From: Escherichia coli
GTDB lineage: Bacteria > Pseudomonadota > Gammaproteobacteria > Enterobacterales > Enterobacteriaceae
Length of the DNA stretch: 64,000 nucleotides
Direction: 5' to 3' (one strand)
Assembly: GCF_041886205.1 (NCBI RefSeq)
Contig: NZ_CP169029.1
Every line of letters begins with the position of its first letter. The stretch's first letter is position 1. Positions 1 through 18,814 of this stretch are shown here, in pieces. A program made the translations under genes and the position numbers. The notes under the pieces are model-generated. The model ran no database searches. It was not told the origin of the DNA and saw only the letters and a list, made by a program, of their open reading frames with translations.

Positions 1-238
1 CATGTTCATGGCAATGATCAGGTAGCTATAAGTACGTTTGAAATGAACATGTTTGATTTCCGTCGTGATAATATAGGAAAAAGTATGCAATCCGGGTTAG
101 ATAAAAAAACTGCTCCTGCAGGAATCATAATGTAATAAATATTAGATATTTTTATATTAGAGGTGAGGAGATGGCGTCACCTCTAATATTTTCGCTGATT
201 GTATTTAGCATCAAATAATAAAGGTACAATTAATTTAA

Positions 239-424
239 GTGACTATCATGAAAAAATTAGTTCCGCCATATCAAGTAACCCCGGCACAAATCTATCGTTC
301 CGTTGCCAGTTCTACAGCCATTGAAACCGGAAAACCCGTGCAAGAAATTGAGCGACAGCTCAAACGTAACCGAACGCTGGCGAAGAACGTCGGCCTCGCC
401 AGCAAATCCAGAGATCCGATTTAA
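239..424 (+). CDS. Hypothetical small protein (61 aa), convergent with integrase
   Basis: ORF in six-frame track; no recognisable family; AT-rich context. Confidence 0.25.
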   Translation: MTIMKKLVPPYQVTPAQIYRSVASSTAIETGKPVQEIERQLKRNRTLAKNVGLASKSRDPI

Positions 425-428
425 GCCT

Positions 429-1736
429 CTATCTCTGCCCAAACAGGTTAACGACATTGTTTTCCTGCTGTTGCTGGTGGTTATTCACCCGAGACTCCCA
501 GATCTCGAGAGCCTTACGCTTTTCAACCAGGTAATCGTAACGATCGTAGTGTTTAGAACTCACATCCTGTAGAGCATGGTTCTGAATGCGGTCACGCAGG
601 TCTTTAGCAATACCCGCTTCGCCCATCAGGGTCTTACAGGTACGACGAATATCACGCGCAATAAAAGATGGGCTCAACGCAAAGTGTTGCCGGTAATAAA
701 TGATGGCTTGTGCAAAGCTGTCTGTGCGTAGATGCTGTTCCGGTTTAATACGCTGCGGGAAGATGTAAGGACTCTGACTATGATTCTCAGCTTTCAACTT
801 TTCGAGTATCTCAATGGCTGACTCAGTCAAAGGCACCAGATGATCCCTTTTATTTTTCGACACATCCGCCACTATCAATAACGTTTTTTCTTCCCAGTTA
901 ACGGCATCCCAACGGCTGGAAACCAGTTCATGAGGCCGCTGGCCACCCGTATAGACACACAAGTTAAGCAATTGGCTGATTAACGGGCCGACCTTTGGTG
1001 CTTTAGGGAAATCCCCCATCAGTTGCTGCAACTCATCCAGCTTCAGCCAGTTTGTCCCTGCCTTCTCCGCTGCAGATTGTTTGGGTATGACACTCACTGG
1101 GTTCATTTGAAGCCCAAACATCACGTTCTGCTGGTGGTTTGCCGGATCGTTGTCAGCCTTCAACCCATAATTGAATGCTGCCATCAGATAAGAGCGAACA
1201 CGATTTGCTTCAACTGATGCGCCACGTTTAATAATGGTGGCCAGAATTTGTTTGATATGAGCGGGGATAACGTCACGCGCTTTCGTCGCTTTAGGTATAA
1301 ATGGATAGGTTTCTTTTTCCAGCCGGTACAAAACCTGTTGCCAGGTGCGTTTACCGTCTTCACGCATTTTGGTGGTGTAACCCAAAATGAGTTGCTCAAT
1401 GCTGCCTTTGAGCTGGTCTTCACGTTGTTGTTGTTCGGCAGAGAAAAGCTGCTCTGCGATTTCAGCTTTGGGGTCTTTCCCTTCTTTAAGAAGACCCGCA
1501 TGTTCTTTACATTGCTGTCTTGCCTGCGCGAGTGACAACTCTGGGAAACGGCCAAGCAGAATGAATTGCCGTTTTCCTTGCCAAAAATAACGATAGTAAA
1601 ATACTCGCTGACCCGATGGCTCAACTTTCACCCCTAATCGCCCTGCCCCACGCTCACCACTTTTATCCCATTCATAATAAGCAGTAGTCTTCGGCTTCAA
1701 GCCACTAATCATTGAGACAGTTAAATTATCAGCCAT
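429..1736 (-). CDS. int: Tyrosine recombinase / phage integrase, P4 family (start probably Met at 1736; longest ORF extends to 1838)
   Basis: N-terminal arm-binding-like segment (FYYRYFWQGKRQFILLGRFPELSLAQARQQ) and C-terminal catalytic region ending HYDRYDY with conserved R/H/R/Y pattern. Confidence 0.8.
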   Translation of the reverse strand: MADNLTVSMISGLKPKTTAYYEWDKSGERGAGRLGVKVEPSGQRVFYYRYFWQGKRQFILLGRFPELSLAQARQQCKEHAGLLKEGKDPKAEIAEQLFSAEQQQREDQLKGSIEQLILGYTTKMREDGKRTWQQVLYRLEKETYPFIPKATKARDVIPAHIKQILATIIKRGASVEANRVRSYLMAAFNYGLKADNDPANHQQNVMFGLQMNPVSVIPKQSAAEKAGTNWLKLDELQQLMGDFPKAPKVGPLISQLLNLCVYTGGQRPHELVSSRWDAVNWEEKTLLIVADVSKNKRDHLVPLTESAIEILEKLKAENHSQSPYIFPQRIKPEQHLRTDSFAQAIIYYRQHFALSPSFIARDIRRTCKTLMGEAGIAKDLRDRIQNHALQDVSSKHYDRYDYLVEKRKALEIWESRVNNHQQQQENNVVNLFGQR

Positions 1737-1930
1737 AGTATTTTTCAGTCCTTTGTTCGTTACGTCACCCAGTCTGATTCTGGGTGACGTAGTGGGTGAC
1801 GTAAGGATGATACTGAAGGTAAAAACGCAGAACAACATGAAACAACAACCAGCAAATAACCTACTGTTATTTATTAAATTTAATCTAACGTGAAAAAAGA
1901 TGCAAAATCATGAAACATGGATTTCATATG

Positions 1931-1976
1931 ACTCATAATCGCTTGGTCGCTGGTTCAAGTCCAGCAGGGGCCACCA
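1931..1976 (+). other. Partial tRNA-Ile(CAU) gene, 3' half only (anticodon loop to CCA); att-site-like remnant
   Basis: ACTCATAATCGCTTGGTCGCTGGTTCAAGTCCAGCAGGGGCCACCA matches the ileX/ileY-type tRNA from the anticodon loop onward; upstream bases do not match the 5' half. Confidence 0.65.
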
Positions 1977-2731
1977 AATCATCATTCATGTATCAGGAAG
2001 AGTTAAGGGTACAAGGGGTACTCGATGGCGGTCTATATTTCACGATTAACGCCATTTCAAGGAAGAAGTGCGGTGGGTGGTTTCGAATGAGGGCTGGTGT
2101 TTTGGTACGTGGCATGCCACTGCAATGTATTTATCCATCAGTACTCATTCAAAAGTACCTGGAAAAAATGCCCGCTATGCCAAGCGGGCAAATTGCTTAC
2201 ATGTGGAATTAAGTAATTAACGATAAAGCCAGAGTATTATCATTTATCATGCCTCTTCATTTAATCAGGTTAATTACTCAAATCACTGAACTATTCTCTG
2301 TTCGCTTACTGATGATAAGTGAAGTGTCACAACCACGATTTGTATGTGGACCAATGCCGTAGAGTAAGGATGAAATGTCTCTGCCACGCATTAAACATCT
2401 ACTACTGACCAGAACACCCGCCGCAGGCAGATGAGTCTTGTGAGTATTACAGAAGCATGGCTATGCTCATTAACCAACTCTAATAGATATAAATTCCTAA
2501 CACTCGAAAAACGAATTTCACTAATAAGTCATAACGGGTGATTTTTATCATACAGCGAAATAACCTTTTGTTTATTAAATTTAACATTCTTGTGCTTATT
2601 TAATTAAAAATTCCATGCGTAGCATGTGAAACAGTTAATGTCAGCAAATGTCTCAAATGAGCGATTTTTTATAGTGACAAACAGTAATAACGTTAAAAAT
2701 AGCCATGAAGACATTAACTGAGGAATAGACA

Positions 2732-4081
2732 ATGTTAGTTAGTAAAAGCAACGAATTTAACACTAGCGCAGTTTTGGCTAGCAGGAATTATAATGAAAAC
2801 AATTCTTCCAACCCCATGGGGCTACTAGCTTATAGTATTTTAAATTTAATTTGTAAGGAAGCTGCCTCAGGGACGTACAACGGTGCTATTGAAATTTTAC
2901 AAAAAATGATGTCTGAATGTAAATATCAAGAAGGCAACGCCTTTGTCATTATGGGATCTGGAGAACAATTAAAACGTATTAAATATGATGTTGATGAAAA
3001 TAACTTAAAAGTATTCAACGTACACTTTAATAATAATGAAGAGTTAGTTACTGATGGTGAGCCTGACGTAGTATGTTTAAGCAAGCAGGAGTGGGAAAAT
3101 CTTCTCATTAAATTAAAACCGGAGATTAAAGAAAATGTGTTTTCTGAAAATAACAAATCATCGAGAGAAAATAATGTTGATCAGTATGTTCAATCCGCTA
3201 AAAGAAATGAACAGGCCCTTTTCGATAATATAATAAAAAGTGATTTTCATGTTGCTTCACTTCAGCCAGGTAGTACGCGTAGTGTTATTTCAGAAACGCC
3301 ACGAAATGTCTGTATGGAACCACGTAATTCCTATGAAACCAAAATAGATGAGATTTCATCTTTGTCAGAGTCAAAGGAACACTCCATAGATATTCAAGAA
3401 AAAACAGATGCGTTTGTGAATGAGTTCAAGGGGATATTATTTGATAAAAATGGAACGTCTTCAGAGTTTCTACTTAATTTTTATGAATGTTGCTATGAGT
3501 TTTTACCAAGAGCGCAGCCTCAGGATAAAATCGATAGCTATAATTCAGCACTGCAAGCTTTTTCCATCTTTTGTTCATCTACGTTGACACATAATAATAT
3601 AGGCTTTGATTTCAAATTATTTCCAGAAGTCAAGCTGTCTAGAGAACATCTTGAAACGGTATTCAAATACAAAAATGGCGATGATGTCCGGGAGATAGCC
3701 AAAATTAACATTACTCTCCAAAAAGAAGAGGGTGGTTTATATAATTTACGTGGATTAGATTTTAAGGGATGCTTCTTTTCTGGACAGAACTTCAGTAACT
3801 ATGATATTCAATATGTGAACTGGGGAACGTCATTGTTTGATCTTGATACTCCATGTATTTTTAATGCGCCTGCTTACAACAAGAGTAATGAAAAATCATT
3901 AGAACGCGTCAGCGAAAACGGTTTAAGTGGAGTCTTGTCTGATCGTAATAAAAAAATAAAACTCATCACGGGCGTGGCACCATTCGATGATATTTTATTT
4001 ATGGATGACGACTTTGATGATAGTTCCTCTGAGGATGATCCCGTTGAGAATAGTCCTGTTGTGACTAGTCCCCTTGTATAA
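2732..4081 (+). CDS. AT-rich hypothetical protein, ypjC-like, with pentapeptide-repeat-like segment near C-terminus
   Basis: 449-aa ORF, low GC, Asn/Ser-rich; segment NLRGLDFKGCFFSGQNFSNYDIQYVNW resembles pentapeptide repeats; position matches ypjC of K-12. Confidence 0.55.
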   Translation: MLVSKSNEFNTSAVLASRNYNENNSSNPMGLLAYSILNLICKEAASGTYNGAIEILQKMMSECKYQEGNAFVIMGSGEQLKRIKYDVDENNLKVFNVHFNNNEELVTDGEPDVVCLSKQEWENLLIKLKPEIKENVFSENNKSSRENNVDQYVQSAKRNEQALFDNIIKSDFHVASLQPGSTRSVISETPRNVCMEPRNSYETKIDEISSLSESKEHSIDIQEKTDAFVNEFKGILFDKNGTSSEFLLNFYECCYEFLPRAQPQDKIDSYNSALQAFSIFCSSTLTHNNIGFDFKLFPEVKLSREHLETVFKYKNGDDVREIAKINITLQKEEGGLYNLRGLDFKGCFFSGQNFSNYDIQYVNWGTSLFDLDTPCIFNAPAYNKSNEKSLERVSENGLSGVLSDRNKKIKLITGVAPFDDILFMDDDFDDSSSEDDPVENSPVVTSPLV

Positions 4082-4389
4082 AGTTCTAAAAGCAGTTTTC
4101 AATGATAAATAAATGGCTATTTTTACGAAGAGATAATAACGTAGATTGAAACAATATGTATTATTGATTGAGTAAACGGGATTATTATTCACACTACATC
4201 CATTTTAGTGTCACTACCAAAGAAAAAGGGGCTACGTTTTCATGTAACCCCTTGATTTATTTGGTGGGCTGGCAGTGACTGAATTGGTGCTGTAATTGGT
4301 TGAAATATTTCATCTAATGTCTGGTTTAACTTTCCTTAGCTGCCTGAAAGTTTTTTGATCTCACCCAGCAATAACAGCGTTACGGTGCA

Positions 4390-4680
4390 CCACGACTGAC
4401 TGAAGAACTGCGTGCTCAGGGTTACCACTTCAACGTAAAACCGTGGCAGGAGGTCCGGACTGAAAAAACTGCTCAGGACATTATCGGCAGGGTACGCACT
4501 GGTAGTCTGTAAACTGAACCGACTGGGGCGCAGTATGTGGCATCTTGTCGTGCTGTTGGAGGAGCTGTGCGAACGTGGTATTAACTTTCGTGCTCTGGCC
4601 CAATCTATATTTGCCCAACAATGGGGGGACGGAAGCTGTAAAAGTAAAACAATCTGCGATCTCAGAGTTATTGTGTGATT
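4390..4680 (+). pseudogene. pinH: Serine invertase (Pin/Hin family) fragment, pinH-like pseudogene
   Basis: Translation KLNRLGRSMWHLVVLLEELCERGINFRALAQSI matches the resolvase/invertase catalytic-domain core; frameshifted upstream, no intact N-terminus or HTH. Confidence 0.7.
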
Positions 4681-5007
4681 TTTATGTGAGCAGAAGATAT
4701 TCATCAGAAACGATTATGTAAATCATTTTATTTTGCCGACTGCCTGATTGTCGAAAGAAAAGAATACGCCCGGGTTTCCTGAATAGATTGACTTTTTTAT
4801 CCAACCACACTTCAGCGCACTGCGTTTAAAAAATGCCTCATTCTTATGCGGAATATCATCATTTCATCATGATGTCTTTGATGAGCGGTGAACACAATAC
4901 ACTTGCGCTGTCTCTTCAGGATGAATCCCCTGGTCTGGTGCCTGTGGGCTGATGTTGCAGCAAAGCTAAGGTCGCTTAAACGCTACTCAGTATTCACTTT
5001 TCAGAGG

Positions 5008-8000
5008 ATGAAATTTATGAACAGGACCAGTCCCTATTATTTTCGCCGCTCAGTACTTTCCTTATTGATATCTGCCCTGATATATGCTCCGCCCGGGATG
5101 GCGGCCTTTACTACTAATGTTATTGGTGTGGTAAATGATGAGACTGTAGATGGCAACCAACGAGTAGATGAACGAGGTACAACAAATAACACTCATATTA
5201 TCAACCATGGCCAGCAGAGTGTTTATGGCGGAGTATCTAATGGAAGTATTATTGAATCGGGTGGATATCAAGATGTTGGAAGGAATAACAATTATATGGG
5301 GCAGTCTAATAATACAACCATTAACGGAGGAAGACAGACAATTCATGACGGGGGCATTTCCACCGGTACGATAATCGACAGTGGCAATCAGGACGTTTAT
5401 ACAGGTGGTATCAGCAATGGAACGACAATTAAGGGTGGTAATTCACACATAAGTGGGGGGACTGCGAATGGAACAATCATTGATGGTGGCAGCCAACGAG
5501 TAACAACGCAGGGGCATGTTGACAGTACAACGATAAATAAGTCTGGCTCTCAGGACATCACGCAAGGAAGTCTGGCGACGAACACAATCATAAATGGTGG
5601 ACGACAGTATGTTGAACAGAGCACAGTAGGAACAACCACCATTAAAAATGGCGGTGAGCAAAGAGTATATGAAAGCCATGCGCTGGACACGACGATTGAA
5701 GGTGGAACTCAGTCTCTGAATAATAAGTCAACGGCAAAAAATACTCAGATCTATTCTGGTGGTACGCAAATTGTTGATAACACCAGCACCTCGGATGTTA
5801 TTGAAGTTTATTCCGGTGGCGTGCTTGATGTTAGTGGTGGTACGGCAACAAATGTTACCCAGCACGATGGTGCAATTTTAAAAACAAACACTAACGGTAC
5901 GACGGTGAACGGTACGAATAGTGAAGGTGCATTCTCCATCCACAATCACGTGGCAGACAATGTGTTGCTGGAAAACGGTGGTCATTTAGACATAAACGCA
6001 TATGGTTCGGCAAACAAGACTATTATCAAAGATAAAGGAACAATGTCAGTTTTAACCAATGCTAAAGCTGATGCGACCCGAATAGATAACGGCGGGGTAA
6101 TGGATGTTGCCGGAAACGCGACCAATACCATAATTAATGGTGGCACACAGAATATTAATAATTATGGCATAGCCACGGGAACCAATATCAACAGCGGAAC
6201 GCAAAATATCAAGAGCGGCGGGAAAGCTGACACGACAATTATATCCTCCGGGAGCCGGCAGGTTGTTGAGAAAGATGGTACGGCAACTGGCAGCAATATT
6301 AGCGCCGGAGGCTCGCTGATTGTCTATACCGGCGGTATTGCACATGGGGTTAACCAGGAGACGGGCAGTGCTTTAGTTGCCAACACGGGTGCAGGGACTG
6401 ATATCGAAGGATACAACAAGCTCTCTCACTTCACTATTACCGGAGGGGAGGCTAATTATGTTGTGCTGGAAAATACCGGCGAACTGACGGTAGTGGCTAA
6501 AACCTCGGCGAAAAATACTACCATTGATACTGGCGGTAAGCTGATTGTCCAGAAGGAGGCTAAAACAGATAGCACCAGACTTAATAATGGCGGCGTTCTG
6601 GAGGTTCAGGACGGTGGTGAGGCTAAGCATGTTGAGCAACAATCCGGCGGCGCATTAATTGCTTCCACGACCTCCGGAACACTTATCGAAGGAACCAACA
6701 GTTATGGTGATGCTTTCTACATCAGGAATTCAGAAGCTAAAAATGTAGTGCTGGAAAACGCTGGCTCATTAACAGTCGTCACTGGTTCCCGGGCAGTTGA
6801 TACGATTATTAATGCCAATGGCAAAATGGATGTTTATGGAAAAGATGTTGGCACTGTACTTAATAGTGCTGGCACCCAAACAATATATGCCAGTGCCACT
6901 TCTGATAAAGCAAATATCAAAGGTGGCAAGCAAACGGTATATGGTTTAGCCACTGAAGCAAATATCGAAAGTGGTGAACAAATTGTTGATGGTGGGTCAA
7001 CAGAGAAAACACACATCAATGGTGGCACGCAAATCGTTCAGAATTATGGTAAGGCAATCAATACCGATATCGTCTCTGGCCTACAACAAATTATGGCAAA
7101 CGGGACAGCGGAAGGTTCCATTATTAATGGGGGTTCACAGGTAGTTAATGAGGGCGGTCTGGCTGAAAACTCGGTGCTTAATGACGGCGGCACACTCGAT
7201 GTGCGGGAGAAAGGCAGCGCAACGGGGATACAGCAGAGTAGCCAGGGCGCTTTGGTTGCAACCACCAGGGCGACGCGGGTCACAGGAACACGCGCGGATG
7301 GCGTCGCGTTCAGCATCGAGCAGGGTGCGGCGAACAATATCCTGCTGGCAAATGGCGGCGTGTTAACCGTGGAGTCAGACACCTCTTCTGACAAAACACA
7401 GGTCAATATGGGCGGACGGGAGATCGTCAAAACAAAAGCCACTGCGACAGGCACGACGCTCACCGGCGGTGAACAAATTGTCGAGGGTGTGGCGAATGAG
7501 ACAACAATTAACGACGGCGGAATACAAACAGTTTCAGCTAACGGAGAGGCAATAAAAACAAAGATCAATGAAGGCGGTACGCTGACAGTCAACGATAATG
7601 GCAAAGCGACAGATATCGTCCAGAACAGCGGTGCCGCTCTCCAGACGAGCACGGCTAACGGTATTGAAATCAGCGGTACTCACCAGTACGGTACTTTTTC
7701 CATTTCCGGCAATTTAGCGACCAATATGTTGCTGGAAAATGGCGGTAATTTATTGGTATTAGCAGGTACCGAAGCTCGCGACTCCACGGTTGGCAAGGGT
7801 GGGGCAATGCAAAACCTGGGTCAGGACTCCGCCACAAAGGTTAACTCTGGCGGGCAATATACCCTTGGGCGGTCAAAAGATGAGTTTCAGGCTCTGGCCC
7901 GGGCAGAAGATCTCCAGGTCGCTGGCGGTACGGCAATCGTCTACGCAGGTACGCTGGCGGATGCATCGGTCAGTGGCGCGACAGGAAGCCTGTCGTTAAT

Positions 8001-9597
8001 GACGCCACGGGATAATGTTACGCCAGTTAAACTCGAAGGGGCGGTCCGGATTACCGATAGCGCGACATTGACTCTGGGAAATGGCGTCGATACCACGCTT
8101 GCCGACCTGACGGCTGCCAGCCGGGGCAGTGTCTGGCTTAACAGCAATAATTCCTGTGCAGGTACCAGCAACTGCGAATATAGAGTAAACAGTTTGCTAC
8201 TCAACGACGGTGATGTTTATTTGTCAGCACAAACAGCAGCGCCTGCCACAACTAACGGTATCTACAATACGCTGACAACCAATGAACTTTCCGGTAGCGG
8301 TAATTTCTACCTGCATACCAACGTTGCAGGCTCCCGGGGCGATCAACTGGTCGTCAACAACAACGCCACTGGTAATTTTAAAATCTTTGTTCAGGATACC
8401 GGCGTCAGCCCACAGTCTGACGACGCGATGACGCTGGTGAAAACAGGGGGAGGGGATGCTTCGTTTACGCTGGGCAATACCGGCGGTTTCGTTGATCTTG
8501 GGACCTATGAGTATGTCCTGAAAAGTGACGGCAACAGCAACTGGAACCTGACCAATGATGTCAAACCCAACCCGGACCCCATCCCAAATCCAAAGCCAGA
8601 CCCAAAACCCGATCCAAAGCCAGACCCAAATCCAAAACCAGACCCTACTCCCGATCCAACGCCGACACCCGTTCCGGAGAAACGCATTACGCCTTCTACG
8701 GCAGCCGTACTCAATATGGCAGCAACATTACCGTTGGTATTTGATGCTGAGCTAAACAGTATTCGCGAGCGGTTGAACATAATGAAAGCGAGTCCACACA
8801 ACAATAATGTCTGGGGGGCGACGTATAACACCCGTAATAATGTCACCACCGATGCGGGTGCCGGGTTTGAGCAGACGCTGACCGGAATGACAGTGGGGAT
8901 CGACAGCCGTAATGATATTCCTGAAGGAATTACCACGCTAGGCGCTTTTATGGGCTATTCCCATTCACATATCGGTTTTGATCGCGGAGGACATGGCAGT
9001 GTGGGCAGTTATTCTCTGGGCGGCTATGCCAGTTGGGAACATGAAAGTGGTTTCTATCTGGACGGTGTCGTGAAGCTGAACCGTTTTAAAAGTAACGTAG
9101 CAGGTAAAATGAGCAGCGGTGGAGCCGCCAATGGCAGTTACCACAGCAACGGGCTGGGCGGTCACATTGAAACCGGGATGCGATTTACCGATGGTAACTG
9201 GAACCTGACGCCGTATGCATCGTTAACGGGGTTCACCGCTGATAACCCCGAATATCATTTATCCAATGGCATGGAATCGAAATCAGTCGATACCCGCAGT
9301 ATATATCGTGAACTGGGTGCAACGCTGAGTTACAACATGCGTCTGGGGAACGGTATGGAAGTTGAGCCGTGGCTGAAGGCGGCTGTGCGCAAAGAATTTG
9401 TCGATGATAACCGGGTGAAGGTGAATAATGACGGTAATTTCGTCAATGATTTGTCGGGCAGACGTGGAATATACCAGGCAGGTATTAAAGCCTCATTCAG
9501 TAGTACGTTAAGCGGGCATCTCGGGGTGGGGTATAGCCATGGTGCCGGTGTGGAATCACCGTGGAACGCGGTGGCTGGTGTGAACTGGTCGTTCTGA
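5008..9597 (+). CDS. ypjA: Large adhesin-like autotransporter (ypjA-like); start assigned to the signal-peptide Met, ORF opens at 4888
   Basis: Signal peptide (MKFMNRTSPYYFRRSVLSLLISALIYAPPGMAA), long passenger of about 19-residue Gly/Thr/Asn-rich repeats, Pro-Asp-Lys linker, C-terminal beta-barrel ending VNWSF. Confidence 0.85.
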   Translation: MKFMNRTSPYYFRRSVLSLLISALIYAPPGMAAFTTNVIGVVNDETVDGNQRVDERGTTNNTHIINHGQQSVYGGVSNGSIIESGGYQDVGRNNNYMGQSNNTTINGGRQTIHDGGISTGTIIDSGNQDVYTGGISNGTTIKGGNSHISGGTANGTIIDGGSQRVTTQGHVDSTTINKSGSQDITQGSLATNTIINGGRQYVEQSTVGTTTIKNGGEQRVYESHALDTTIEGGTQSLNNKSTAKNTQIYSGGTQIVDNTSTSDVIEVYSGGVLDVSGGTATNVTQHDGAILKTNTNGTTVNGTNSEGAFSIHNHVADNVLLENGGHLDINAYGSANKTIIKDKGTMSVLTNAKADATRIDNGGVMDVAGNATNTIINGGTQNINNYGIATGTNINSGTQNIKSGGKADTTIISSGSRQVVEKDGTATGSNISAGGSLIVYTGGIAHGVNQETGSALVANTGAGTDIEGYNKLSHFTITGGEANYVVLENTGELTVVAKTSAKNTTIDTGGKLIVQKEAKTDSTRLNNGGVLEVQDGGEAKHVEQQSGGALIASTTSGTLIEGTNSYGDAFYIRNSEAKNVVLENAGSLTVVTGSRAVDTIINANGKMDVYGKDVGTVLNSAGTQTIYASATSDKANIKGGKQTVYGLATEANIESGEQIVDGGSTEKTHINGGTQIVQNYGKAINTDIVSGLQQIMANGTAEGSIINGGSQVVNEGGLAENSVLNDGGTLDVREKGSATGIQQSSQGALVATTRATRVTGTRADGVAFSIEQGAANNILLANGGVLTVESDTSSDKTQVNMGGREIVKTKATATGTTLTGGEQIVEGVANETTINDGGIQTVSANGEAIKTKINEGGTLTVNDNGKATDIVQNSGAALQTSTANGIEISGTHQYGTFSISGNLATNMLLENGGNLLVLAGTEARDSTVGKGGAMQNLGQDSATKVNSGGQYTLGRSKDEFQALARAEDLQVAGGTAIVYAGTLADASVSGATGSLSLMTPRDNVTPVKLEGAVRITDSATLTLGNGVDTTLADLTAASRGSVWLNSNNSCAGTSNCEYRVNSLLLNDGDVYLSAQTAAPATTNGIYNTLTTNELSGSGNFYLHTNVAGSRGDQLVVNNNATGNFKIFVQDTGVSPQSDDAMTLVKTGGGDASFTLGNTGGFVDLGTYEYVLKSDGNSNWNLTNDVKPNPDPIPNPKPDPKPDPKPDPNPKPDPTPDPTPTPVPEKRITPSTAAVLNMAATLPLVFDAELNSIRERLNIMKASPHNNNVWGATYNTRNNVTTDAGAGFEQTLTGMTVGIDSRNDIPEGITTLGAFMGYSHSHIGFDRGGHGSVGSYSLGGYASWEHESGFYLDGVVKLNRFKSNVAGKMSSGGAANGSYHSNGLGGHIETGMRFTDGNWNLTPYASLTGFTADNPEYHLSNGMESKSVDTRSIYRELGATLSYNMRLGNGMEVEPWLKAAVRKEFVDDNRVKVNNDGNFVNDLSGRRGIYQAGIKASFSSTLSGHLGVGYSHGAGVESPWNAVAGVNWSF

Positions 9598-9607
9598 CCA
9601 TCAACGA

Positions 9608-9630
9608 AAAAGCCCACATCTGTGGGCTTT
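9608..9630 (+). terminator. Hairpin downstream of ypjA (AAAGCCCACA-tctg-TGTGGGCTTT)
   Basis: Perfect 10-bp inverted repeat 11 nt after the stop codon; weak U-tract. Confidence 0.4.
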
Positions 9631-9760
9631 CATGTTACCAGGAGCCGCGGCTCTTTTGCGTATCCTGTTTTGTCTCCTCACCGTCTGGTCGGTGTCCTGC
9701 TGAGGCTGCTAACTTCCTGTTTTTGTTGGTGTTGTCCTTACACCGTCCAATCATGATTGG

Positions 9761-9771
9761 GCTGGCGGAGT
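9761..9771. other. Putative distal att core (imperfect repeat of ssrA 3' end)
   Basis: GCTGGCGGAGT resembles GCTGGCGGGAGT at the tmRNA 3' end (window 21340-21351); short and imperfect. Confidence 0.3.
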
Positions 9772-9825
9772 CTGAATAACATTTGCAACATAATGTTTTT
9801 ATTGTTTATTTTCCAATTCAACTTT

Positions 9826-9853
9826 CATTGGTATACCTAAGCGTATACCAATG
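9826..9853. repeat. Inverted repeat CATTGGTATAC-ctaagc-GTATACCAATG; candidate integrase arm-type site
   Basis: Perfect 11-bp arms; near-identical motif recurs at 21199-21223 at the opposite end of the element. Confidence 0.5.
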
Positions 9854-9937
9854 GCGATTTGTTGCAATGATTCCTGTGGTTAAGCGAACTTGTTGTTGAA
9901 TAGCTCACATCAAGAAAAAAACTTTTTTTACGGAAAA

Positions 9938-10030
9938 CTGTTCACACTGTTCACTCGCCATTATTTGTCTTTAATTTCAATGTGATATACGGTGAATAGT
10001 CCGTGAACAGTGAACACTTTACTGTTCACT
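9938..10030. repeat. Cluster of TGTTCAC iterons (P4 ori-like, alpha-binding type)
   Basis: At least five copies of TGTTCAC/GTGAACA in both orientations just downstream of the alpha gene. Confidence 0.6.
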
Positions 10031-10040
10031 TTCCGGGATT

Positions 10041-10070
10041 TCAGGTAAAAAAAGACCGGCTGATGCCGGT
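10041..10070 (-). terminator. Rho-independent terminator downstream of alpha
   Basis: On minus strand GACCGGCATCAGCCGGTC hairpin followed by TTTTTTT. Confidence 0.55.
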
Positions 10071-10079
10071 CCGGGTAGG

Positions 10080-12413
10080 TTATGTCGCGGTGGTTTCGTC
10101 GCACCGGGGCAGCCAGTCGGCGTTGCTTTCCTCCCTGAGCGCAAGGTTCGTCTGCATCCCCTGATTTGTTCGCCGCCTGGCGTAATTCAGCCCGTACTCT
10201 TTCAGCATCGATGACAGCCCTTTGCCGAACATGGTCAGGCTGAGGGTGTTCTTGTAGCCGTGCGCCTCCATGTAAACCAGATAGGCGTGATACAGGTACA
10301 GGCGCGGCTGTCGCGGGATGATATTCGCATTCCCCATGTACATACCGTCAGGCTCGGGCAGCGCCTCCAGATAGCCACAAAAATCGAATGTCGGGTCAGC
10401 GTCGCGCTTGATGCTGAGTGCCTCGTCGGAGTTCTGCTGCGACTGGAGCAGTGTGCGCGCGGTCATCGGGTCGCTGAACGTCTGCATAAGCTGACGCACG
10501 ATGACGGCCAGCTCGCGGGCAATTTTATCTTTCAGCTTCGGGTCACGCTCCTCCGGGGCAATCTGTTCCGGGAAGTGCATTATCACCCGGCGACGCGACA
10601 CGCCGCCGCTGCGGTCGGTGAAGCGCATCGGATTGTTGTTTACGGCCAGTATCACCGCCGGAATATGGGTGGAGTACGCATCGCGGTATTTCGGGTCAAC
10701 CGAGACCGCATCCCCGCCGGTGATGGCCTTGAGTCCTGCCCCGTCACCGCTCCATTTCTCCTGGTCAGGCAGACGTATCAGCGAGAAGCCAATCAGCGCC
10801 GCGCGCTCGCGGGGGGATTCCAGCGTTTCGATAGTCGCTGACGTGGCGTTATCTTCCCCGGCGAGCATGGTCGCTATTTCGGCCAGAATACTTTTCCCGC
10901 TGCCACCGGGACCGGTCACTTCGAGGAAGAGCTGCCAGTCGTAGCGGTTCGCCAGCACCATAAACAGCGCGGCGAGTATCACGTCACGTTTATCGGCACG
11001 CGAACCGGCGGCGCGGTCGAGCCAGCGCCAGAAATTCGGCGCGTGCGTCTCCAGCGTTTCCCCCTCCACCGGCGGGGTGAAATCCACGTCGCACAGGGTG
11101 CGCAGCCAGTGCGTTTTGCTGTGCGGGCTGAATATACCGGTACTGGTATCAAGCACGCCGTTGCGAAAGCCAATCAGCCGCCGTGGCGGGGCATCCTGCT
11201 GCGGAATAATCAGTTTCAGGGTGTCCACCACCGAGGCAATTTTCCCCGACGAAAACGGGGCGCGCAGACGCTGGAACAGCCCGGCCACGTCGCGCGCAAA
11301 GTCTGACGGCGGAATGATTTTCCATATACCGGCTTCATAGCGGGACAGGAGCTGCCCGTTCGCATCCACCGCCAGCGCTTCGCCGTAATGCTCATGCACC
11401 CGCATGGCTTTCTCACTGGTGCTCATGGCGGTAAATTCCGCCTCGCTCATGGTAGAGAAAGGGCTTTCAGCCGGTGGCCGGATGGCGTCATACATGGCTT
11501 TACGCGTGGCCTCCCCACCGTGCTGTGTATACGCATCATTCCAGTCACCGAACACCGGCGGCAGGGCGACCACGCCCTCACAGGACTCTGCGGCCGCAGA
11601 CGCTTTGGTCTGGCCGTCGCCGTTAAGGTCACGGTCGGCGGCAATGACAATCCGGCAGGCCGGGTATTTGTGACGGGCAAGGCTCGCCAGAGAAAGGAGG
11701 TTCACCGACGACAGCGCCACCATGACGGTTTCGCCGGTCAGGTGATGCACGGTGAGCGCGGTCGCGTAGCCCTCCGCTATCCACAGCCGTTTTCCCGCCT
11801 CTTTTTTCCCGTCGAGAATATGACATGTCCCTTTTACCTGCCCCCCTTTCAGGGTGCGCTTGAGACCGTCCGCGTTAATGAGCTGGACGTTAACCAGTGC
11901 GCCGCTATCGTCATACAGCGGGACAACCACATCCCCGGCACGGTACGTCACACCGCCGGTTTTGTGCATGGCCGTCAGTACCTGACATTCCCGGCCGGGA
12001 AAGCCCTTGCGGGTGAGGTAGGCGTTGCCGGTGGCCGGTTGGGTTTTCTCCATCAGTCTGGCGGCCAGCGCGGCCGCCGCTTTGCGGTCGGCCTCCGTTT
12101 CAGCGTCTGCGGCCGCAGTCACCGCCGGGGATACCGGAGGCAGGTTGCCGGTCACGGCGTTCACCTTCCCGGCCGCCTCTGACGGGGTCACGCCGAACAC
12201 TTTCTCAACCAGTTTCAGACCGTCCCCCGCGCCGCACTGGTTACAGAACCACGTCCCGCGTCCCTCCTTATCGTCAAAGCGAAAGCGGTCGGAGCCGCCA
12301 CACACCGGACAGGCCTGATGACGGTTTTTGATGACCGTTACCCCCAGCGCCGGGAGAATGCGCGGCCAGTGGCCGCACGCCTGTTTCACGGTGTCCGTTA
12401 CGTTCATTTTCAT
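10080..12413 (-). CDS. P4 alpha-like primase-helicase (777 aa)
   Basis: N-terminal zinc-binding cysteine pairs (CPVCGG ... CNQCG), central primase region, Walker A (GPGGSGKS) helicase domain; size identical to P4 alpha. Confidence 0.9.
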   Translation of the reverse strand: MKMNVTDTVKQACGHWPRILPALGVTVIKNRHQACPVCGGSDRFRFDDKEGRGTWFCNQCGAGDGLKLVEKVFGVTPSEAAGKVNAVTGNLPPVSPAVTAAADAETEADRKAAAALAARLMEKTQPATGNAYLTRKGFPGRECQVLTAMHKTGGVTYRAGDVVVPLYDDSGALVNVQLINADGLKRTLKGGQVKGTCHILDGKKEAGKRLWIAEGYATALTVHHLTGETVMVALSSVNLLSLASLARHKYPACRIVIAADRDLNGDGQTKASAAAESCEGVVALPPVFGDWNDAYTQHGGEATRKAMYDAIRPPAESPFSTMSEAEFTAMSTSEKAMRVHEHYGEALAVDANGQLLSRYEAGIWKIIPPSDFARDVAGLFQRLRAPFSSGKIASVVDTLKLIIPQQDAPPRRLIGFRNGVLDTSTGIFSPHSKTHWLRTLCDVDFTPPVEGETLETHAPNFWRWLDRAAGSRADKRDVILAALFMVLANRYDWQLFLEVTGPGGSGKSILAEIATMLAGEDNATSATIETLESPRERAALIGFSLIRLPDQEKWSGDGAGLKAITGGDAVSVDPKYRDAYSTHIPAVILAVNNNPMRFTDRSGGVSRRRVIMHFPEQIAPEERDPKLKDKIARELAVIVRQLMQTFSDPMTARTLLQSQQNSDEALSIKRDADPTFDFCGYLEALPEPDGMYMGNANIIPRQPRLYLYHAYLVYMEAHGYKNTLSLTMFGKGLSSMLKEYGLNYARRRTNQGMQTNLALREESNADWLPRCDETTAT

Positions 12414-12424
12414 GGTGTTCTCCC

Positions 12425-12745
12425 TCAGTGCAGCGCCGGTGCGGTGATATGACGGGCGCAGAGTTCATCCATCACGGCCAGCCCGAGAAAGGACAGCGAC
12501 GGCGCGGCCTTGAGTGGTCCGGCTTCCATTAAATCTTCGAGCAGGGCACAGGCAATCTGACGGCCTTTTTCCTCGCCATGCTGGCGCAGGTAGAAGCCCT
12601 CCAGCTCGGTCGCAATGGCGCTTTCCAGCGTACTGAGCGTGAGCTGCGGGTAGCGGTGCTGACGTTCGCACAGGGTCAGCCATGCACAGGCCACGGCGCG
12701 GCGATAGAGCGCGGCGCGTAAGACGGGCGTTAATGGCTTTTTCAT
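12425..12745 (-). CDS. Hypothetical protein (106 aa), satellite left operon
   Basis: ORF abutting the alpha start in the same operon. Confidence 0.45.
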
Positions 12746-13002
12746 ACGTTGCGCTCCCCGGCCAGCCAGCGCTGATTGCAGCGTTCGACCACACCTTCAA
12801 GCCGGGCGGTCATGAGGTAAATCACCGAGGTGAGCTGTAGCTGCTGCGCCGGATTGTGGCGCAAAGAGGTGCAGTCCTGCACCTGCATCAGTTCGCCGAC
12901 GAGCTGGCCGACGTTGCGAAGATGTTCGAGGCATTCGAGGTCTGCCCGGCTGATGGTGGGCTGGTTTATATTCTGCGACCGTTCCGTACTGTTAACAGGC
13001 AT
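12742..13002 (-). CDS. Hypothetical protein (about 86 aa; start at Met with AGGAG upstream)
   Basis: ORF with Shine-Dalgarno-like AGGAG before ATG at 13002; 4-nt overlap with downstream gene. Confidence 0.4.
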
Positions 13003-13073
13003 TATTTCGTCTCCTGAGGACGTGCGTATCCCTGCGCAGATACGCACATTTTATTTTGGGGTGTCGTTTTTAA

Positions 13074-13523
13074 TTACAGATAACGGCGGTAGCTGTTATC
13101 CGGTTTTATTTCCGTTTCCAGCCTGAAATTATTCCGCCATTTATGCGCCACCGGCGCCGGGCGTTTAACCGGGGGAATATCATCAGGATAGTTATCGATA
13201 TTCCGCGCCCGGTATTGCTGTAATGCCGGGTCGGCCGCTATTTCGCGTAATACGGCGTGGCGGTTTTCAGGGTTGCGCTTAAATACATCGGGATGCTCAC
13301 AGGTAAAGTCCCGCAAAAAACGACTGAGCGGAATTTCTGCCATACGGCCACCGGCAATAATACGAATGAGGATGGTGTAGGTGCGCCGGTAAGGGTTCCA
13401 GACCAGCCCCGGACAGCGGTACGGCATATCCCACGGAATACCGTCGGCCAGCACGCCCGACACCACCACATCAGGAAATCCTGTACAGCGATATGTTTCG
13501 CCCGGCTGAGGGAAATCAAACAT
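13074..13523 (-). CDS. P4 orf151-like protein (149 aa)
   Basis: Position and size match P4 orf151 upstream of alpha; GGAGG before ATG. Confidence 0.5.
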   Translation of the reverse strand: MFDFPQPGETYRCTGFPDVVVSGVLADGIPWDMPYRCPGLVWNPYRRTYTILIRIIAGGRMAEIPLSRFLRDFTCEHPDVFKRNPENRHAVLREIAADPALQQYRARNIDNYPDDIPPVKRPAPVAHKWRNNFRLETEIKPDNSYRRYL

Positions 13524-13815
13524 GGTGCTCCCCTCCGTTTCCCGACGTCGTGGCGAGAAAGTCACGGCACAGGCCTTTGGCTTTCAGCTCTTCCAGGACG
13601 TAGCTGACGTCCTCATGGATATAACTAAAAATCTGCGGCAGGTATAGCTGGTGTAAACCGTTCAGCTCACGGCGCAGCAAATCTCCACCGATGAACTGCG
13701 AGACGGCGCTGGCGCGATTGAGTTTATGGTACGCCTCAATGCTGAGGTGTTCCTGCATGGGGTTAAGGTCATCACGACGCGCTGAGATGGTCTGAGGGGT
13801 GTTTTTATTATGCAT
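13516..13815 (-). CDS. Small protein (99 aa), position of P4 epsilon
   Basis: In-frame Met inside a longer ORF; overlaps neighbours by 8 nt; position equivalent to epsilon. Confidence 0.45.
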
Positions 13816-14005
13816 GTGACACCTCCACAACCGGCAGACGGGCGGCAAGGGAAAGCACGTATTCCCGGACAAGGGTGCGGCGGGCGGCCAGCTCGTCACC
13901 GGCCACGGTGCGGAGCATACAGATACGGGGTTTACGGTCTGCACGACGGACGGCGGCAAACACAAAGACAAACTGAGGGTGTGACGGGGTGAGGGTCGTA
14001 GCCAT
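13808..14005 (-). CDS. Small protein (65 aa), position of P4 kil/eta
   Basis: AGGAGG 7 nt upstream of ATG at 14005; overlaps downstream gene start. Confidence 0.35.
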
Positions 14006-14403
14006 AAGGCAACCTCCTTCGAGTAGCAAATTATTGCTATCGCCGGAGTTCTCACGCTCAGTGGCGATAGCCCAGACGGGGGTGAGAATACCGGCCTCGA
14101 AGAATACCGGCCAGCCCGAGGGCTGCCCCGCCTGAGCTACCATTGACATGACAGCATGATATGCGATTGCGGACAGGAGACACAAAGTGACGTCTGCACG
14201 ACGATCCGCACACCACGCCATTATCTGGCGCTCTGTGGCGTTAGTTGCGACACAAAAAAAGACGCATGGCGCGTCTGGTGTCGCCTTCGAGTTACTCGGG
14301 TTCTCACGCCCGGTTACCGATTTTGCGGCAACAGCAAAACTGTACCAGGAAACACACAACGGATGCAAGCCAGAAAAAGGGGCTTTGTGAAATCGGCTCT
14401 GAT

Positions 14404-14670
14404 TCATGCGTCGTATTTCCGGTTGCGGTGCGCGACACGTTCTTCCATCCATGCCGTGATTTCAGACTGTAGCCAGGCGACATTTTTACCCCCGAGGGAA
14501 ACCTGCGCCGGGAAAGCGTTACGGGCGATTAAATCGTAGAGCGTGGAGCGGGACAGGCCGCACTGATGAATGACTTCCGGGAGACGTAAAAAACGTTCCT
14601 GAGTCGGGGCTGAAACCGGCATCGGGTGCGCGGCAGTGGGGGACGGTGGTGCTGATGAAACTGTGTGCAT
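14404..14670 (-). CDS. Vis/AlpA-family transcriptional regulator (start may be internal Met at 14622)
   Basis: [28 protein letters not shown] is an AlpA-type HTH; 88 aa as for P4 Vis; divergent from sid. Confidence 0.7.
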
Positions 14671-14944
14671 AACGCTACCTCGTTAATATCCGCAGAGATC
14701 CGGACGTATCCGTCCGGTATCAGGTAGCGCTCTATTTTGTGAATATTTTTCTTCAATGCAACAGAGGCATGTTGTGTCGTGGAGCAGTTTTGTCTGTTAT
14801 TTAAGCAGCGACCTGAAAATATGAAAAATAATTGGCACATGACGCGCTGAGACGTTCATAAATCACAGTCAATTGATATCGCCTATCAATAGATAAAAAT
14901 ATAATTATTAAAACAATGACTCTCTAAAAGGAGCTTGCCGAAAC

Positions 14945-15050
14945 CAGTGAACAGTAGTGAACAGTTGGTGAACACTTTTCTCTCAACTGTTCACTCTTTA
15001 ATTTATTGTTTTATTTATATTTTTATACTGAGTGAACAGTAGTGAATAGT
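14945..15050. repeat. Second TGTTCAC iteron cluster in the divergent vis/sid control region (crr-like)
   Basis: Six copies of GTGAACA/TGTTCAC in an AT-rich intergenic region about 5 kb from the first cluster. Confidence 0.5.
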
Positions 15051-15218
15051 TATATGTAAAAAAACAAATAGAGTGAGGGGTTTTCCTGCGACCTTTCTCT
15101 GGCCAGCCGGGTTTTTAAGTCCTGTTTGTGCCATGTCTGCGACAACGGCAATGAATCGAGTTGTTGTCTGAGGGACGGCAGAATGGCGTCAGGTTGAAAA
15201 CACAGAGAGAACCCGACG

Positions 15219-16022: not shown

Positions 16023-16261
16023 TGCGCTGTCCGTACTGCAAACAGGCTGCCCATGTCCGTACCAGCCGTTACCTGTCGGATAACGTCAAACAGAGCTACC
16101 TCCAGTGCGTGAATGTCTTTTGCTCCGCAACCTTTCGCACCACCGAGTCTATCGACGAGGTAATACGGCCACCGGCAGAAGAAAAGCCCGAACCGCCGCA
16201 GACAGTACCAGAAACACCGCCCCGAATTCTGGACTGCGCCCGGTCATCGCTGCGCCACTGA
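16019..16261 (+). CDS. Delta/Ogr-type zinc-finger late transcription activator
   Basis: MMRCPYCKQAAHVRTSRYLSDNVKQSYLQCVNVFCSATF with C-x2-C ... C-x4-C pattern typical of P2 Ogr/P4 Delta; 4-nt overlap with sid. Confidence 0.85.
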   Translation: MMRCPYCKQAAHVRTSRYLSDNVKQSYLQCVNVFCSATFRTTESIDEVIRPPAEEKPEPPQTVPETPPRILDCARSSLRH

Positions 16262-16277
16262 TTCAGGAGAAAAGACA

Positions 16278-16853: not shown

Positions 16854-17017
16854 AACGCCCCGAAAATACCCGTCTTTTTAATAAAAATAGCCATGCATGC
16901 CTACGCTGCATGGCTTTGCATGCAAAAACCTGAATTTTCCACACCCCGCCGCACCAGCACTGGCGCGGCCTGAGTCCCTTCATGCGCCTGCATTAAAAGT
17001 GCCCCACGAAGCGGGCA

Positions 17018-17036
17018 GGCGTGGCGGGGAGAGCAT
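17018..17036. other. cos-like cohesive-end site
   Basis: GGCGTGGCGGGGAGAGCAT matches 16 of 19 positions of the P2/P4 cohesive end as I recall it; lies after psu as in integrated P4. Confidence 0.45.
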
Positions 17037-17113
17037 TGCGCGCCAAGCGATATATAATTAATTAATGAAGAAGGATAGAATTAACCATATAGCCATAAAA
17101 AAGGATGCGGGTG

Positions 17114-18685: not shown

Positions 18686-18814
18686 AAACATTACGTTGCA
18701 AGTATATCTTGTATTCGTTCAACTTTGACCTGACACACCTCTGGCACAAAGCCCCAATCTCATAGGCGGTTCTATGCCAGGGGCTGAAAGTCTGTCTCTG
18801 GTAACATACACTTA

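What the first reader, a model, noticed from the sequence alone, without database searches (positions are those of the whole stretch)
156..217. 11-bp inverted repeat enclosing a Shine-Dalgarno/ATG of a 15-codon hydrophobic mini-ORF
ATTAGAGGTGA-ggagatggcg-TCACCTCTAAT forms a perfect hairpin whose loop contains GGAG followed by ATG; the ATG opens a 15-codon ORF (MASPLIFSLIVFSIK). Occlusion of a start site in a hairpin is seen for leader peptides and small toxin genes. It could equally be a terminator for an off-window gene.
Basis: seen in the sequence. Interest (0 to 1): 0.2.

Follow-up and report, generated by a model that had tools for sequence, protein, structure and literature searches.

The report
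Terminator hairpin after drt1a defence gene
The inverted repeat is real, but it is most likely the ordinary terminator / 3'-end stem-loop of an anti-phage reverse-transcriptase gene (drt1a) whose last 44 codons lie at the window's left edge, and the 15-codon ORF inside it looks like a by-product.

Summary
The repeat is real and longer than reported. Perfect 13-nt arms lie at 154-166 and 177-189 around a 10-nt loop, and it is the only perfect hairpin of that size in the 64 kb window. It starts 18 nt after the TAA-TAA that closes a 1274-aa gene running off the left edge. PADLOC calls that gene Drt1a (DRT type 1, RT-nitrilase).

The hairpin follows the drt1a stop in every close relative examined (75-97% protein identity; seven sequence variants). 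Five base pairs show compensatory changes, and two wobbles pair only in + strand RNA. It is absent from islands with the same hsdM/58-aa/integrase backbone but no drt1a, and from distant Drt1a loci.

In the window it is followed by UUUCGCUGAUU, so an intrinsic terminator and 3'-end protector of drt1a mRNA is the best reading. It would shield the convergent integrase from read-through.

The mini-ORF (171-218) is frame-shifted in Hafnia and has no ATG in two other variants. Where it is kept, dN/dS is about 1. The loop GGAG touches the ATG; the usable Shine-Dalgarno is GAGGTGA, buried in the stem. It is not Drt1b (146-169 aa).

Verdict: ordinary feature, low interest.

The parts
1..135 (+). 3' end of drt1a (last 44 codons plus TAA, followed by a second TAA at 136-138). 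The gene is DRT type 1 (UG1), a reverse transcriptase-nitrilase.
   Evidence: Frame 1 is open from base 1. The whole 1274-aa gene is seen in L001-L010. PADLOC Drt1a E=0, 1396 bits; Pfam RVT_1.
154..189 (+). Stem-loop: 13-bp perfect stem (154-166 / 177-189) and 10-nt loop (167-176). Proposed terminator / 3'-end hairpin of drt1a mRNA.
   Evidence: Conserved structure with 5 compensatory pairs across 7 variants.
190..200 (+). U-rich tail UUUCGCUGAUU directly after the stem (U189 is the last paired base, giving a run of four U).
   Evidence: Sequence. 4 U in the first 8 nt; tail score 3.73. Conserved in all variants in the hsd/integrase-island context.
171..218 (+). 15-codon mini-ORF MASPLIFSLIVFSIK plus stop. 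Judged incidental.
   Evidence: Frame-shifted in L011, no ATG in L016 and L013. dN/dS about 1 against L061 and L016.
194..209 (+). Weak second hairpin GCUGA-uuguau-UUAGC in the 3' UTR. The right end of the drt1a cassette lies at about 218-220.
   Evidence: Folds. Cassette boundary from comparison with drt1a-less islands and with L016 and L061.
248..424 (+). Conserved 58-aa ORF of unknown function. It belongs to the integrase module, not to the hairpin.
   Evidence: Called as a gene in all loci. Present without drt1a or the hairpin in L068-L071. dN/dS 0.108/0.572. No Pfam, PADLOC or NCBIfam hit.
429..1736 (-). P4-type tyrosine integrase (435 aa), convergent with drt1a and the 58-aa ORF.
   Evidence: Pfam Arm-DNA-bind_3, Phage_int_M, Phage_integrase. 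Start codon read.
1930..1976 (+). 3' fragment of tRNA-Ile(CAU), from the anticodon loop to CCA. This is the att remnant where the island joins the E. coli chromosome.
   Evidence: Sequence. No whole tRNA found there. E. coli homology resumes at about 1917, with tRNA-Ile annotated under the match.

Best explanation
The inverted repeat is the 3'-terminal stem-loop of the drt1a transcript. As the + strand is transcribed past the drt1a stop, the 13-bp hairpin forms in the nascent RNA 18 nt after the stop. That is far enough for a terminating ribosome not to melt it. Together with the following UUUCGCUGAUU it releases RNA polymerase (Rho-independent termination). It then protects the mRNA 3' end from 3'-exonucleases. 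This keeps drt1a transcription from running into the 58-aa ORF and, antisense, into the convergent integrase gene. What is shown: position, stability, non-random occurrence, linkage to drt1a, and conservation of pairing on the + strand RNA. What is inferred: that transcripts actually end here. The mini-ORF, the loop GGAG and the SD-like GAGGTGA are by-products of the hairpin sequence and the U-rich tail. U at second codon positions gives F/L/I/V, which explains the 'hydrophobic' peptide.
For: (1) The hairpin sits 18 nt after the TAA-TAA of a co-oriented 1274-aa gene identified as Drt1a. (2) A hairpin is present 15-21 nt after the drt1a stop in all seven sequence variants of the >=75%-identity subclade (window, L060, L011, L016, L061, L014, L013), although loop sequence and length vary (6-13 nt) and the stop-to-stem spacer is essentially unalignable. 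(3) On the 14-pair helix, 91.8% of cells pair and 5 pairs carry changes on both sides. 0/500 shuffles reach the observed values, and slid controls pair only 37-52%. (4) The two one-sided changes are G.U (L013) and U.G (L061). These pair only in + strand RNA; on the - strand or in DNA they are mismatches. (5) Hairpin dG is -15 to -20 kcal/mol in every variant. The tail has 4-5 U in the first 8 nt in all five variants that sit in the window's island context. (6) Linkage: every held locus that keeps the drt1a 3' flank has the hairpin, including the IS-truncated ones (L003, L004, L067). Four loci with the same hsdM/58-aa/integrase backbone but no drt1a (L068-L071) lack it. (7) Solo drt1a genes in distant taxa are also followed by terminator-like hairpins of unrelated sequence, e.g. 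L022 and L035 (read). (8) No Rfam family matches the hairpin.
Against: The stem is AU-rich (4 G-C pairs of 13) and the loop is 10 nt, so the tool's own terminator scan did not call it. The U tract is short (UUUU then CGC). In the two variants that sit in other genomic contexts the tail is not U-rich: L013 UACUACAAG scores 2.5 and L014 AAGUGUCU scores 1.8. There the conserved hairpin cannot be a classical intrinsic terminator, so the selected function may be 3'-end stabilisation or something else. An in-frame start codon just before TC(A/G)-CCT occurs in two independent loop types (ATG in A-type and B-type). The third has only a TTG with no SD spacing, which is more than I would have guessed by chance. 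No transcript data were available.
Confidence: 0.75

Rival explanations
1. SD-sequestering hairpin that gates translation of a downstream reading frame. GAGGTGA in the 5' arm would be a ribosome-binding site for an ORF starting at the loop / 3'-arm border. That ORF would be the mini-ORF here, or a longer partner gene in some relatives. The window's version would be a working micro-ORF or a vestige of such a start.
For: GAGGTGA matches the anti-SD complement at 7 nt and lies at workable spacing from the ATG (read). In L014 GAGGTGA-N7-ATG opens an ORF (MSPQKVSGTKTGLLT...) that is still open where the contig ends. L061 has a different loop but again an in-frame ATG, giving MSPLISLLIVFSFK. About 18% of DRT1 genes have a downstream partner gene, drt1b (PMC9226505, PMC13275509).
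Against: The frame is broken in the intact Hafnia locus and the ATG is missing in L016 and L013. dN/dS is about 1. The peptide sequence after the 3' arm is not shared by L013 or L014. A -19 kcal/mol stem over the SD would almost abolish initiation (inference from established knowledge of mRNA structure and initiation). True Drt1b is 146-169 aa and starts 3-23 nt after the stop with no such hairpin.
Confidence: 0.1
2. The mini-ORF encodes a functional hydrophobic micropeptide: a type I toxin-like peptide, or a minimal membrane partner of DRT1.
For: The sequence is hydrophobic and an SD is sequestered in a stem, as in several type I toxin mRNAs (own knowledge). A promoter-like site lies on the - strand at 274->245 and could give an antisense RNA. 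The ORF is intact in the window-type, Enterobacter-type and L061 variants.
Against: It has 15 residues with a hydrophobic run of only about 10, too short to span a bilayer. The shortest type I toxins I know of (Ibs) are 18-19 aa (own knowledge). The ORF is not conserved and evolves neutrally. Promoter-like sites occur at chance frequency: 7 found against 6.4 expected. A distantly related DRT1 defends on its own from a heterologous promoter (PMC13275509).
Confidence: 0.04
3. DNA-level element: a palindromic protein-binding or recombination site marking the 3' edge of a mobile drt1a cassette.
For: Homology between the window-type, Pantoea (L013) and L014 loci stops right at the 3' arm. The drt1a segment is present or absent as a block between hsdM and the 58-aa ORF.
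Against: G.U and U.G changes keep an RNA helix but would be mismatches in a DNA cruciform, and they break the symmetry of a palindromic site. In the island context the block's right end lies about 30 nt beyond the hairpin, not at it. No matching repeat was noticed in the left-boundary sequences read, and the hairpin is unique in the window.
Confidence: 0.05
4. Structured RNA used by the Drt1a reverse transcriptase itself, as template, primer or regulator, like the ncRNAs of DRT2, DRT3 and DRT9.
For: It is a conserved structure physically linked to an RT gene.
Against: [quoted passage not shown] That enzyme is only a distant relative: PDB 9yfd matches at 510 bits. Drt1a loci at 28-58% identity have no homologous hairpin. 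No Rfam hit.
Confidence: 0.03

Closest known systems
Rho-independent (intrinsic) transcription terminators of enterobacteria
   Same: A stable stem-loop a short distance after the stop codon of a co-oriented gene, followed by a U run. Pairing is conserved while the loop and flanks drift. It sits between convergent genes.
   Different: The stem is AU-rich (4 G-C of 13), the loop is long (10 nt) and only four consecutive U follow. Two relatives keep the hairpin without a U-rich tail.
Type I toxin mRNAs (e.g. Ibs/Sib, Ldr/Rdl, TisB/IstR, Hok/Sok; own knowledge)
   Same: A small hydrophobic ORF whose Shine-Dalgarno is locked in a stem.
   Different: The ORF is shorter than any of these toxins and is not conserved in frame or start codon. 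It shows no purifying selection, and no antisense RNA gene is evident.
Leader-peptide attenuators (trpL, pheL, ivbL type; own knowledge)
   Same: A very short ORF overlapping a terminator-like hairpin upstream of another gene.
   Different: The hairpin encloses the start rather than following the ORF, and no alternative antiterminator is conserved. The downstream 58-aa gene exists unchanged in islands that lack the hairpin (L068-L071).
Drt1b, the transmembrane partner encoded after about 18% of drt1a genes (PMC9226505, PMC13275509)
   Same: A hydrophobic product encoded immediately downstream of drt1a.
   Different: Drt1b is 146-169 aa and matches PADLOC Drt1b models at E of about 1e-58 to 1e-60. 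Nothing of that size or similarity lies here.

Membership tests
Intrinsic terminator | Stable RNA stem-loop on the transcribed strand | tested here: met
   13-bp perfect stem, -19.1 kcal/mol. z -3.8 to -4.7.
Intrinsic terminator | U-rich tract immediately 3' of the stem | tested here: inconclusive
   UUUCGCUGAUU: 4 U in the first 8 nt, decay-weighted tail score 3.73. The formula and the usual cut-off of about 2.5 are from my memory of TransTermHP. The tool's own scan did not call it because the loop exceeds 8 nt. The tail is not U-rich in L013 and L014.
Intrinsic terminator | Lies just downstream of the stop of a co-oriented gene | tested here: met
   18 nt after the TAA-TAA of drt1a.
Intrinsic terminator | Pairing maintained in evolution on the sense strand | tested here: met
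   5 compensatory pairs; 91.8% of cells paired against 37-52% for slid controls; G.U and U.G wobbles.
Intrinsic terminator | Transcript 3' ends map to the U tract | not testable with these tools
   No RNA-seq or Term-seq data available.
Type I toxin / functional micropeptide | ORF (start, frame, length) conserved in homologous loci | tested here: not met
   Frame-shift in L011; ATA for ATG in L016; no ATG in L013.
Type I toxin / functional micropeptide | Purifying selection on the peptide | tested here: not met
   dN/dS 0.111/0.107 (L061) and 0.113/0.102 (L016), against 0.108/0.572 for the neighbouring 58-aa ORF. There are few substitutions, so power is low.
Type I toxin / functional micropeptide | Antisense or trans-acting antitoxin RNA | tested here: inconclusive
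   One promoter-like site on the - strand (274->245), but such sites occur at chance frequency.
Leader-peptide attenuator | Element is coupled to the downstream regulated gene | tested here: not met
   The 58-aa ORF and integrase occur without the hairpin in L068-L071. The hairpin occurs without them in L013.
Drt1b | Match to Drt1b profile; about 150-aa TM protein directly after drt1a | tested here: not met
   True Drt1b: L019 146 aa and L030 169 aa, E 5.5e-60 and 3e-58. The 58-aa ORF has no PADLOC hit. The mini-ORF is too short to scan.
DRT-associated ncRNA (DRT2/3/9 type) | Structured RNA conserved across the RT family and required by the RT | tested here: not met
   Absent after the stop in the 36 Drt1a loci examined, apart from Pantoea (L036), at 28-58% identity. 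No Rfam hit. Whether the RT requires it is not testable here.

The most novel reading that the evidence does not exclude
In this enterobacterial DRT1 lineage, which lacks drt1b, the conserved SD / anti-SD-like hairpin (GAGGUGA / UCACCUC) is a translational gate. When the stem is opened, a hydrophobic micropeptide (or, in L014-type loci, a longer partner) is made and takes part in DRT1 defence or in its regulation.
Probability: 0.04. Interest if true: 0.55.

Novelty: new member of a known kind. Interest (0 to 1): 0.1.

Why it matters
It matters little in itself. It gives the 3' boundary and likely terminator of a DRT type 1 defence gene carried on a tRNA-Ile-integrated island, and it removes a false lead (a 'toxin / leader peptide'). 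It is of practical use to anyone cloning this drt1a with native flanks. The expression unit runs from the divergent hsdM/drt1a intergenic region to about window 218, and it needs no small downstream ORF by the evidence here. The one point that keeps any curiosity alive is that the hairpin is retained in two relatives without a U tract.

Tried and rejected
1. Megablast of window 1-450 against 5,426 complete E. coli genomes, and blastn of 100-260 against plasmids, found nothing. The island is rare in finished E. coli genomes, so no public annotation could be consulted.

2. An Rfam scan of 1-3000 at E<=1 gave nothing at the hairpin.

3. The idea that the mini-ORF is a miscalled Drt1b was rejected. 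Real Drt1b is 146-169 aa and unrelated.

4. The idea that the hairpin regulates the 58-aa ORF was rejected using the drt1a-less islands.

5. The longer (93-107 aa) 'versions' of the 58-aa protein could have been N-terminal extensions reaching the hairpin. They are C-terminal read-throughs caused by a 1-nt deletion at the stop.

6. I tried to extend the open L014 ORF. The contig ends 83 nt after the stop, the sister contig L015 is no longer, and a megablast of the tail found nothing.

7. A viral-contig scan with the C-terminal coding pattern gave 0 hits.

8. The left-boundary alignment was poorly set up because gene starts differ between loci. I used it only to confirm that L011 shares the L001 boundary.

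9. The DRT1 sequence used in PMC13275509 could not be located in the stored supplements. PDB 9yfd shows it is only a distant relative.

Full report
**Observation.** ATATTAGAGGTGA (154-166) pairs perfectly with TCACCTCTAATAT (177-189) around the 10-nt loop GGAGATGGCG. The hairpin alone folds at -19.1 kcal/mol. In context it is 3.8-4.7 sd better than dinucleotide shuffles. It is the only perfect inverted repeat of >=13 bp with a loop of <=12 nt in the 64 kb window. First-order random sequences of the same composition gave none in 40 trials, and 0.2 per sequence at >=11 bp. It is single-copy in the window. The ORF ATG171..TAA218 reads MASPLIFSLIVFSIK. The loop GGAG abuts the ATG with no spacer. 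The SD-like element with usable spacing is GAGGTGA (160-166), inside the 5' arm. Short ORFs are abundant here: 92 ORFs of >=20 aa occur in 6 kb.

**What lies around it.** Frame 1 is open from base 1 to TAA 133-135, followed by a second TAA. An exact-sequence look-up of the neighbouring 58-aa ORF (248-424) returned ten long contigs that are about 100% identical to window 1-450.
- In eight of them the open frame is the end of a 1258-1274-aa gene. In L003 and L004 only IS-truncated C-terminal remnants remain.
- PADLOC scores the gene as Drt1a: E=0, 1396 bits, full-length match to the 1176-position model. Pfam sees RVT_1. It is therefore a DRT type 1 (UG1) reverse transcriptase-nitrilase defence gene.
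- Upstream, off the window, is a type I restriction-modification operon (hsdRSM).
- Downstream are the 58-aa ORF, a convergent P4-type integrase (429-1736, - strand) and a 47-nt 3' fragment of tRNA-Ile(CAU) at 1930-1976.
- The window is E. coli chromosome: the ssrA/smpB region is 99.7% identical to E. coli, and E. coli homology resumes at about 1917 with tRNA-Ile annotated under the match.
- So the hairpin lies inside a tRNA-Ile-integrated defence island. That island is missing from all 5,426 complete E. coli genomes searched. It is recorded in Citrobacter, Enterobacter, Morganella and some E. coli drafts.

**Is the hairpin conserved, and with what?** I collected every sequence variant I could reach.
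- Sources were the closest protein clusters (97, 90, 87, 84 and 75% identity), a degenerate-pattern scan of metagenomes with the C-terminal coding sequence, and variants of the 58-aa protein.
- Seven distinct versions of the drt1a 3' flank resulted: window, L060/Enterobacter, L011/Hafnia, L016, L061, L014 and L013/Pantoea.
- All carry a hairpin 15-21 nt after the stop. Loops differ in sequence and length (6-13 nt), and the spacer between stop and stem is essentially unalignable.
- On a 14-pair helix, 91.8% of cells pair and five pairs have changes on both sides (A-U to U-A, U-A to G-C, and so on). None of 500 column shuffles reaches the observed values. Sliding the partner by 1-3 columns drops pairing to 37-52%.
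- The two one-sided changes are G.U in L013 and U.G in L061. These keep an RNA helix on the + strand only. On the - strand, or in a DNA cruciform, they would be mismatches.
- Stability is -15 to -20 kcal/mol in every variant.

**Linkage.** Every held locus that keeps the drt1a 3' flank has the hairpin. That includes L003 and L004, where IS elements truncated the gene, and L067, where an IS3 element ends 5 nt before the stem. Four loci (L068-L071) have the same hsdM, 58-aa ORF and integrase but no drt1a. There hsdM is followed after 110 nt by the 58-aa ORF and no hairpin is present. Comparison with L001, L016 and L061 places the right end of the drt1a segment at about window 218-220. In Pantoea the gene sits alone between unrelated chromosomal genes and still has the hairpin. 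The hairpin therefore belongs to drt1a, not to the integrase module. At greater distance (36 loci at 28-58% identity, from a scan of 100,044 species representatives) no homologous hairpin exists. Those genes are followed by Drt1b, by other genes, or by unrelated terminator-like hairpins.

**Terminator or not.** In the window and in the four other variants that share its island context, the stem is followed by U-rich sequence (UUUCGCUGAUU or UCUUUGCUGAUU). That is 4-5 U in the first eight nucleotides and a decay-weighted tail score of 3.5-3.7. The scoring scheme and its usual cut-off of about 2.5 are from my memory of TransTermHP. The tool's own scan missed the hairpin because its loop limit is 8 nt.

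The geometry fits a terminator: it sits just after a stop codon, on the sense strand, before a convergent gene. On the - strand the hairpin is followed by AAAAAUAUCU, so it is not the integrase terminator. A candidate for that lies at 363-348.

The weak point is that L013 and L014 keep the hairpin but have tails scoring 2.5 and 1.8. In those loci homology with the window stops exactly at the 3' arm. What selection preserves everywhere is the stem-loop. Its role as an intrinsic terminator is well supported only for the island context that includes the window. 3'-end protection of the mRNA is the function common to all variants. Both roles are inferred, not shown.

**The mini-ORF.**
- It is intact in the window type, in the Enterobacter type (loop GGGG instead of GGAG) and, with one synonymous change, in L004.
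- In L061 a different loop provides another in-frame ATG (MSPLISLLIVFSFK).
- In Hafnia, where drt1a and the 58-aa ORF are intact, a 1-nt insertion in the loop shifts the frame (MGITSNIFADCI*).
- In L016 the ATG is ATA, though that locus is decaying. In Pantoea there is no ATG and the downstream sequence is unrelated. In L014 the frame opens but continues into unrelated sequence.
- Against L061, the part of the ORF that can be aligned has dN 0.111 and dS 0.107. Against L016 the values are 0.113 and 0.102. The 58-aa ORF gives 0.108/0.572 and the drt1a C-terminus 0.087/0.728 for the same pair.
- The 29 nt after the stem are conserved at the nucleotide level (26/29 against L061), but not in a codon-wise pattern.
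- With 15 residues and a hydrophobic run of about 10, the peptide could not span a membrane.
- It is not Drt1b. In real examples Drt1b is 146-169 aa, starts 3-23 nt after the stop and hits the PADLOC models at about 1e-58 to 1e-60.
- The literature says only about 18% of UG1/DRT1 genes have drt1b (33 of 175; PMC9226505). [quoted passage not shown] That enzyme is only a distant relative of this one: PDB 9yfd matches at 510 bits.

**Residual oddities.**
- The stem core GAGGUGA/UCACCUC is an SD / anti-SD look-alike.
- An in-frame ATG precedes TC(A/G)-CCT in two independent loop types. The third has only a TTG with no spacing.
- I give about 10% to a translational-gate or vestigial-RBS reading, about 4% to a functional micropeptide, about 5% to a DNA-level cassette-boundary site and about 3% to an RNA used by the RT. 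The wobble pairs argue against the DNA reading, and the absence in distant DRT1 loci argues against an RT cofactor.

**Verdict.** This is an ordinary, previously unannotated instance of a known kind of element. Its only added value is to define the 3' end of a DRT1 expression unit.

Noticed in passing
window 1-135 (gene continues off the left edge; whole in L001 6064-9888): The window's left edge is the end of a DRT type 1 (Drt1a, RT-nitrilase) anti-phage gene. It sits next to a type I R-M operon on an island integrated at tRNA-Ile. This lineage has no drt1b. The island is absent from 5,426 complete E. coli genomes but is recorded in Citrobacter, Enterobacter, Morganella and E. coli drafts.
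   Followed up: yes
window 248-424 (+): A 58-aa ORF, convergent with the integrase with stops 4 nt apart. It is under purifying selection (dN/dS 0.108/0.572 against L061) and always accompanies this integrase, even without drt1a. It has no Pfam, PADLOC or NCBIfam match. The 93-107-aa 'versions' in databases are read-throughs caused by a 1-nt deletion at its stop. Its function is unknown; it might be an excision or regulatory factor.
   Followed up: partly
window 1761-1803: A perfect 12-bp inverted repeat, TACGTCACCCAG-tctgatt-CTGGGTGACGTA (1761-1791), lies 25 nt upstream of the integrase start (1736). It is followed by a third, direct copy of GGGTGACGTA (1794-1803). This looks like a set of protein-binding sites in the int promoter / att arm region.
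   Followed up: no
window 1930-1976 (+): A 47-nt 3' fragment of tRNA-Ile(CAU) (ileX/ileY type), with no complete tRNA here. It is the att remnant at the island-chromosome junction. The integrase is adjacent to it and reads away from it, which is the reverse of the usual tRNA->int order.
   Followed up: partly
window about 2000-21695: A second block of accessory DNA lies between the tRNA-Ile fragment and ssrA (tmRNA at 21333-21695, - strand). It includes a DUF5507/DUF5508 protein (2732-4081) and a 1569-aa ORF (4888-9597; 1524-1526 aa as called in L001/L009) that looks to me like an Ag43-type autotransporter, an attribution not tested here. In L001 a P4-type primase gene follows.
   Followed up: no
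window 9826-9853 and 21181-21210: Two perfect 11-bp hairpins share a GGTATAC/GTATACC core (CATTGGTATAC..GTATACCAATG and TTTAGGTATAC..GTATACCTAAA). One lies after the large ORF at 4888-9597 and the other next to the 3' end of ssrA. They could be related att or terminator elements.
   Followed up: no
L067 1-150; L003 and L004 about 8400-9900: IS elements have repeatedly hit drt1a: IS3 family ending 5 nt before the hairpin in L067, a DDE_Tnp_1 element in L003 and IS1 in L004. The hairpin, the 58-aa ORF and the integrase remain intact in each case.
   Followed up: partly
L014 6655-6698: In the 87%-identity relative, GAGGTGA-N7-ATG at the hairpin opens an ORF (MSPQKVSGTKTGLLT...) that is still open at the contig end. 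The sequence after the 3' arm is unrelated to the window. What it encodes is unknown.
   Followed up: partly
L020, L026, L047, L049 just after the drt1a stop: Several marine Drt1a loci are followed within 3-30 nt by a conserved ORF starting MAIEQGIWR(I/L)... It is not Drt1b and may be another recurrent DRT1 partner gene.
   Followed up: no
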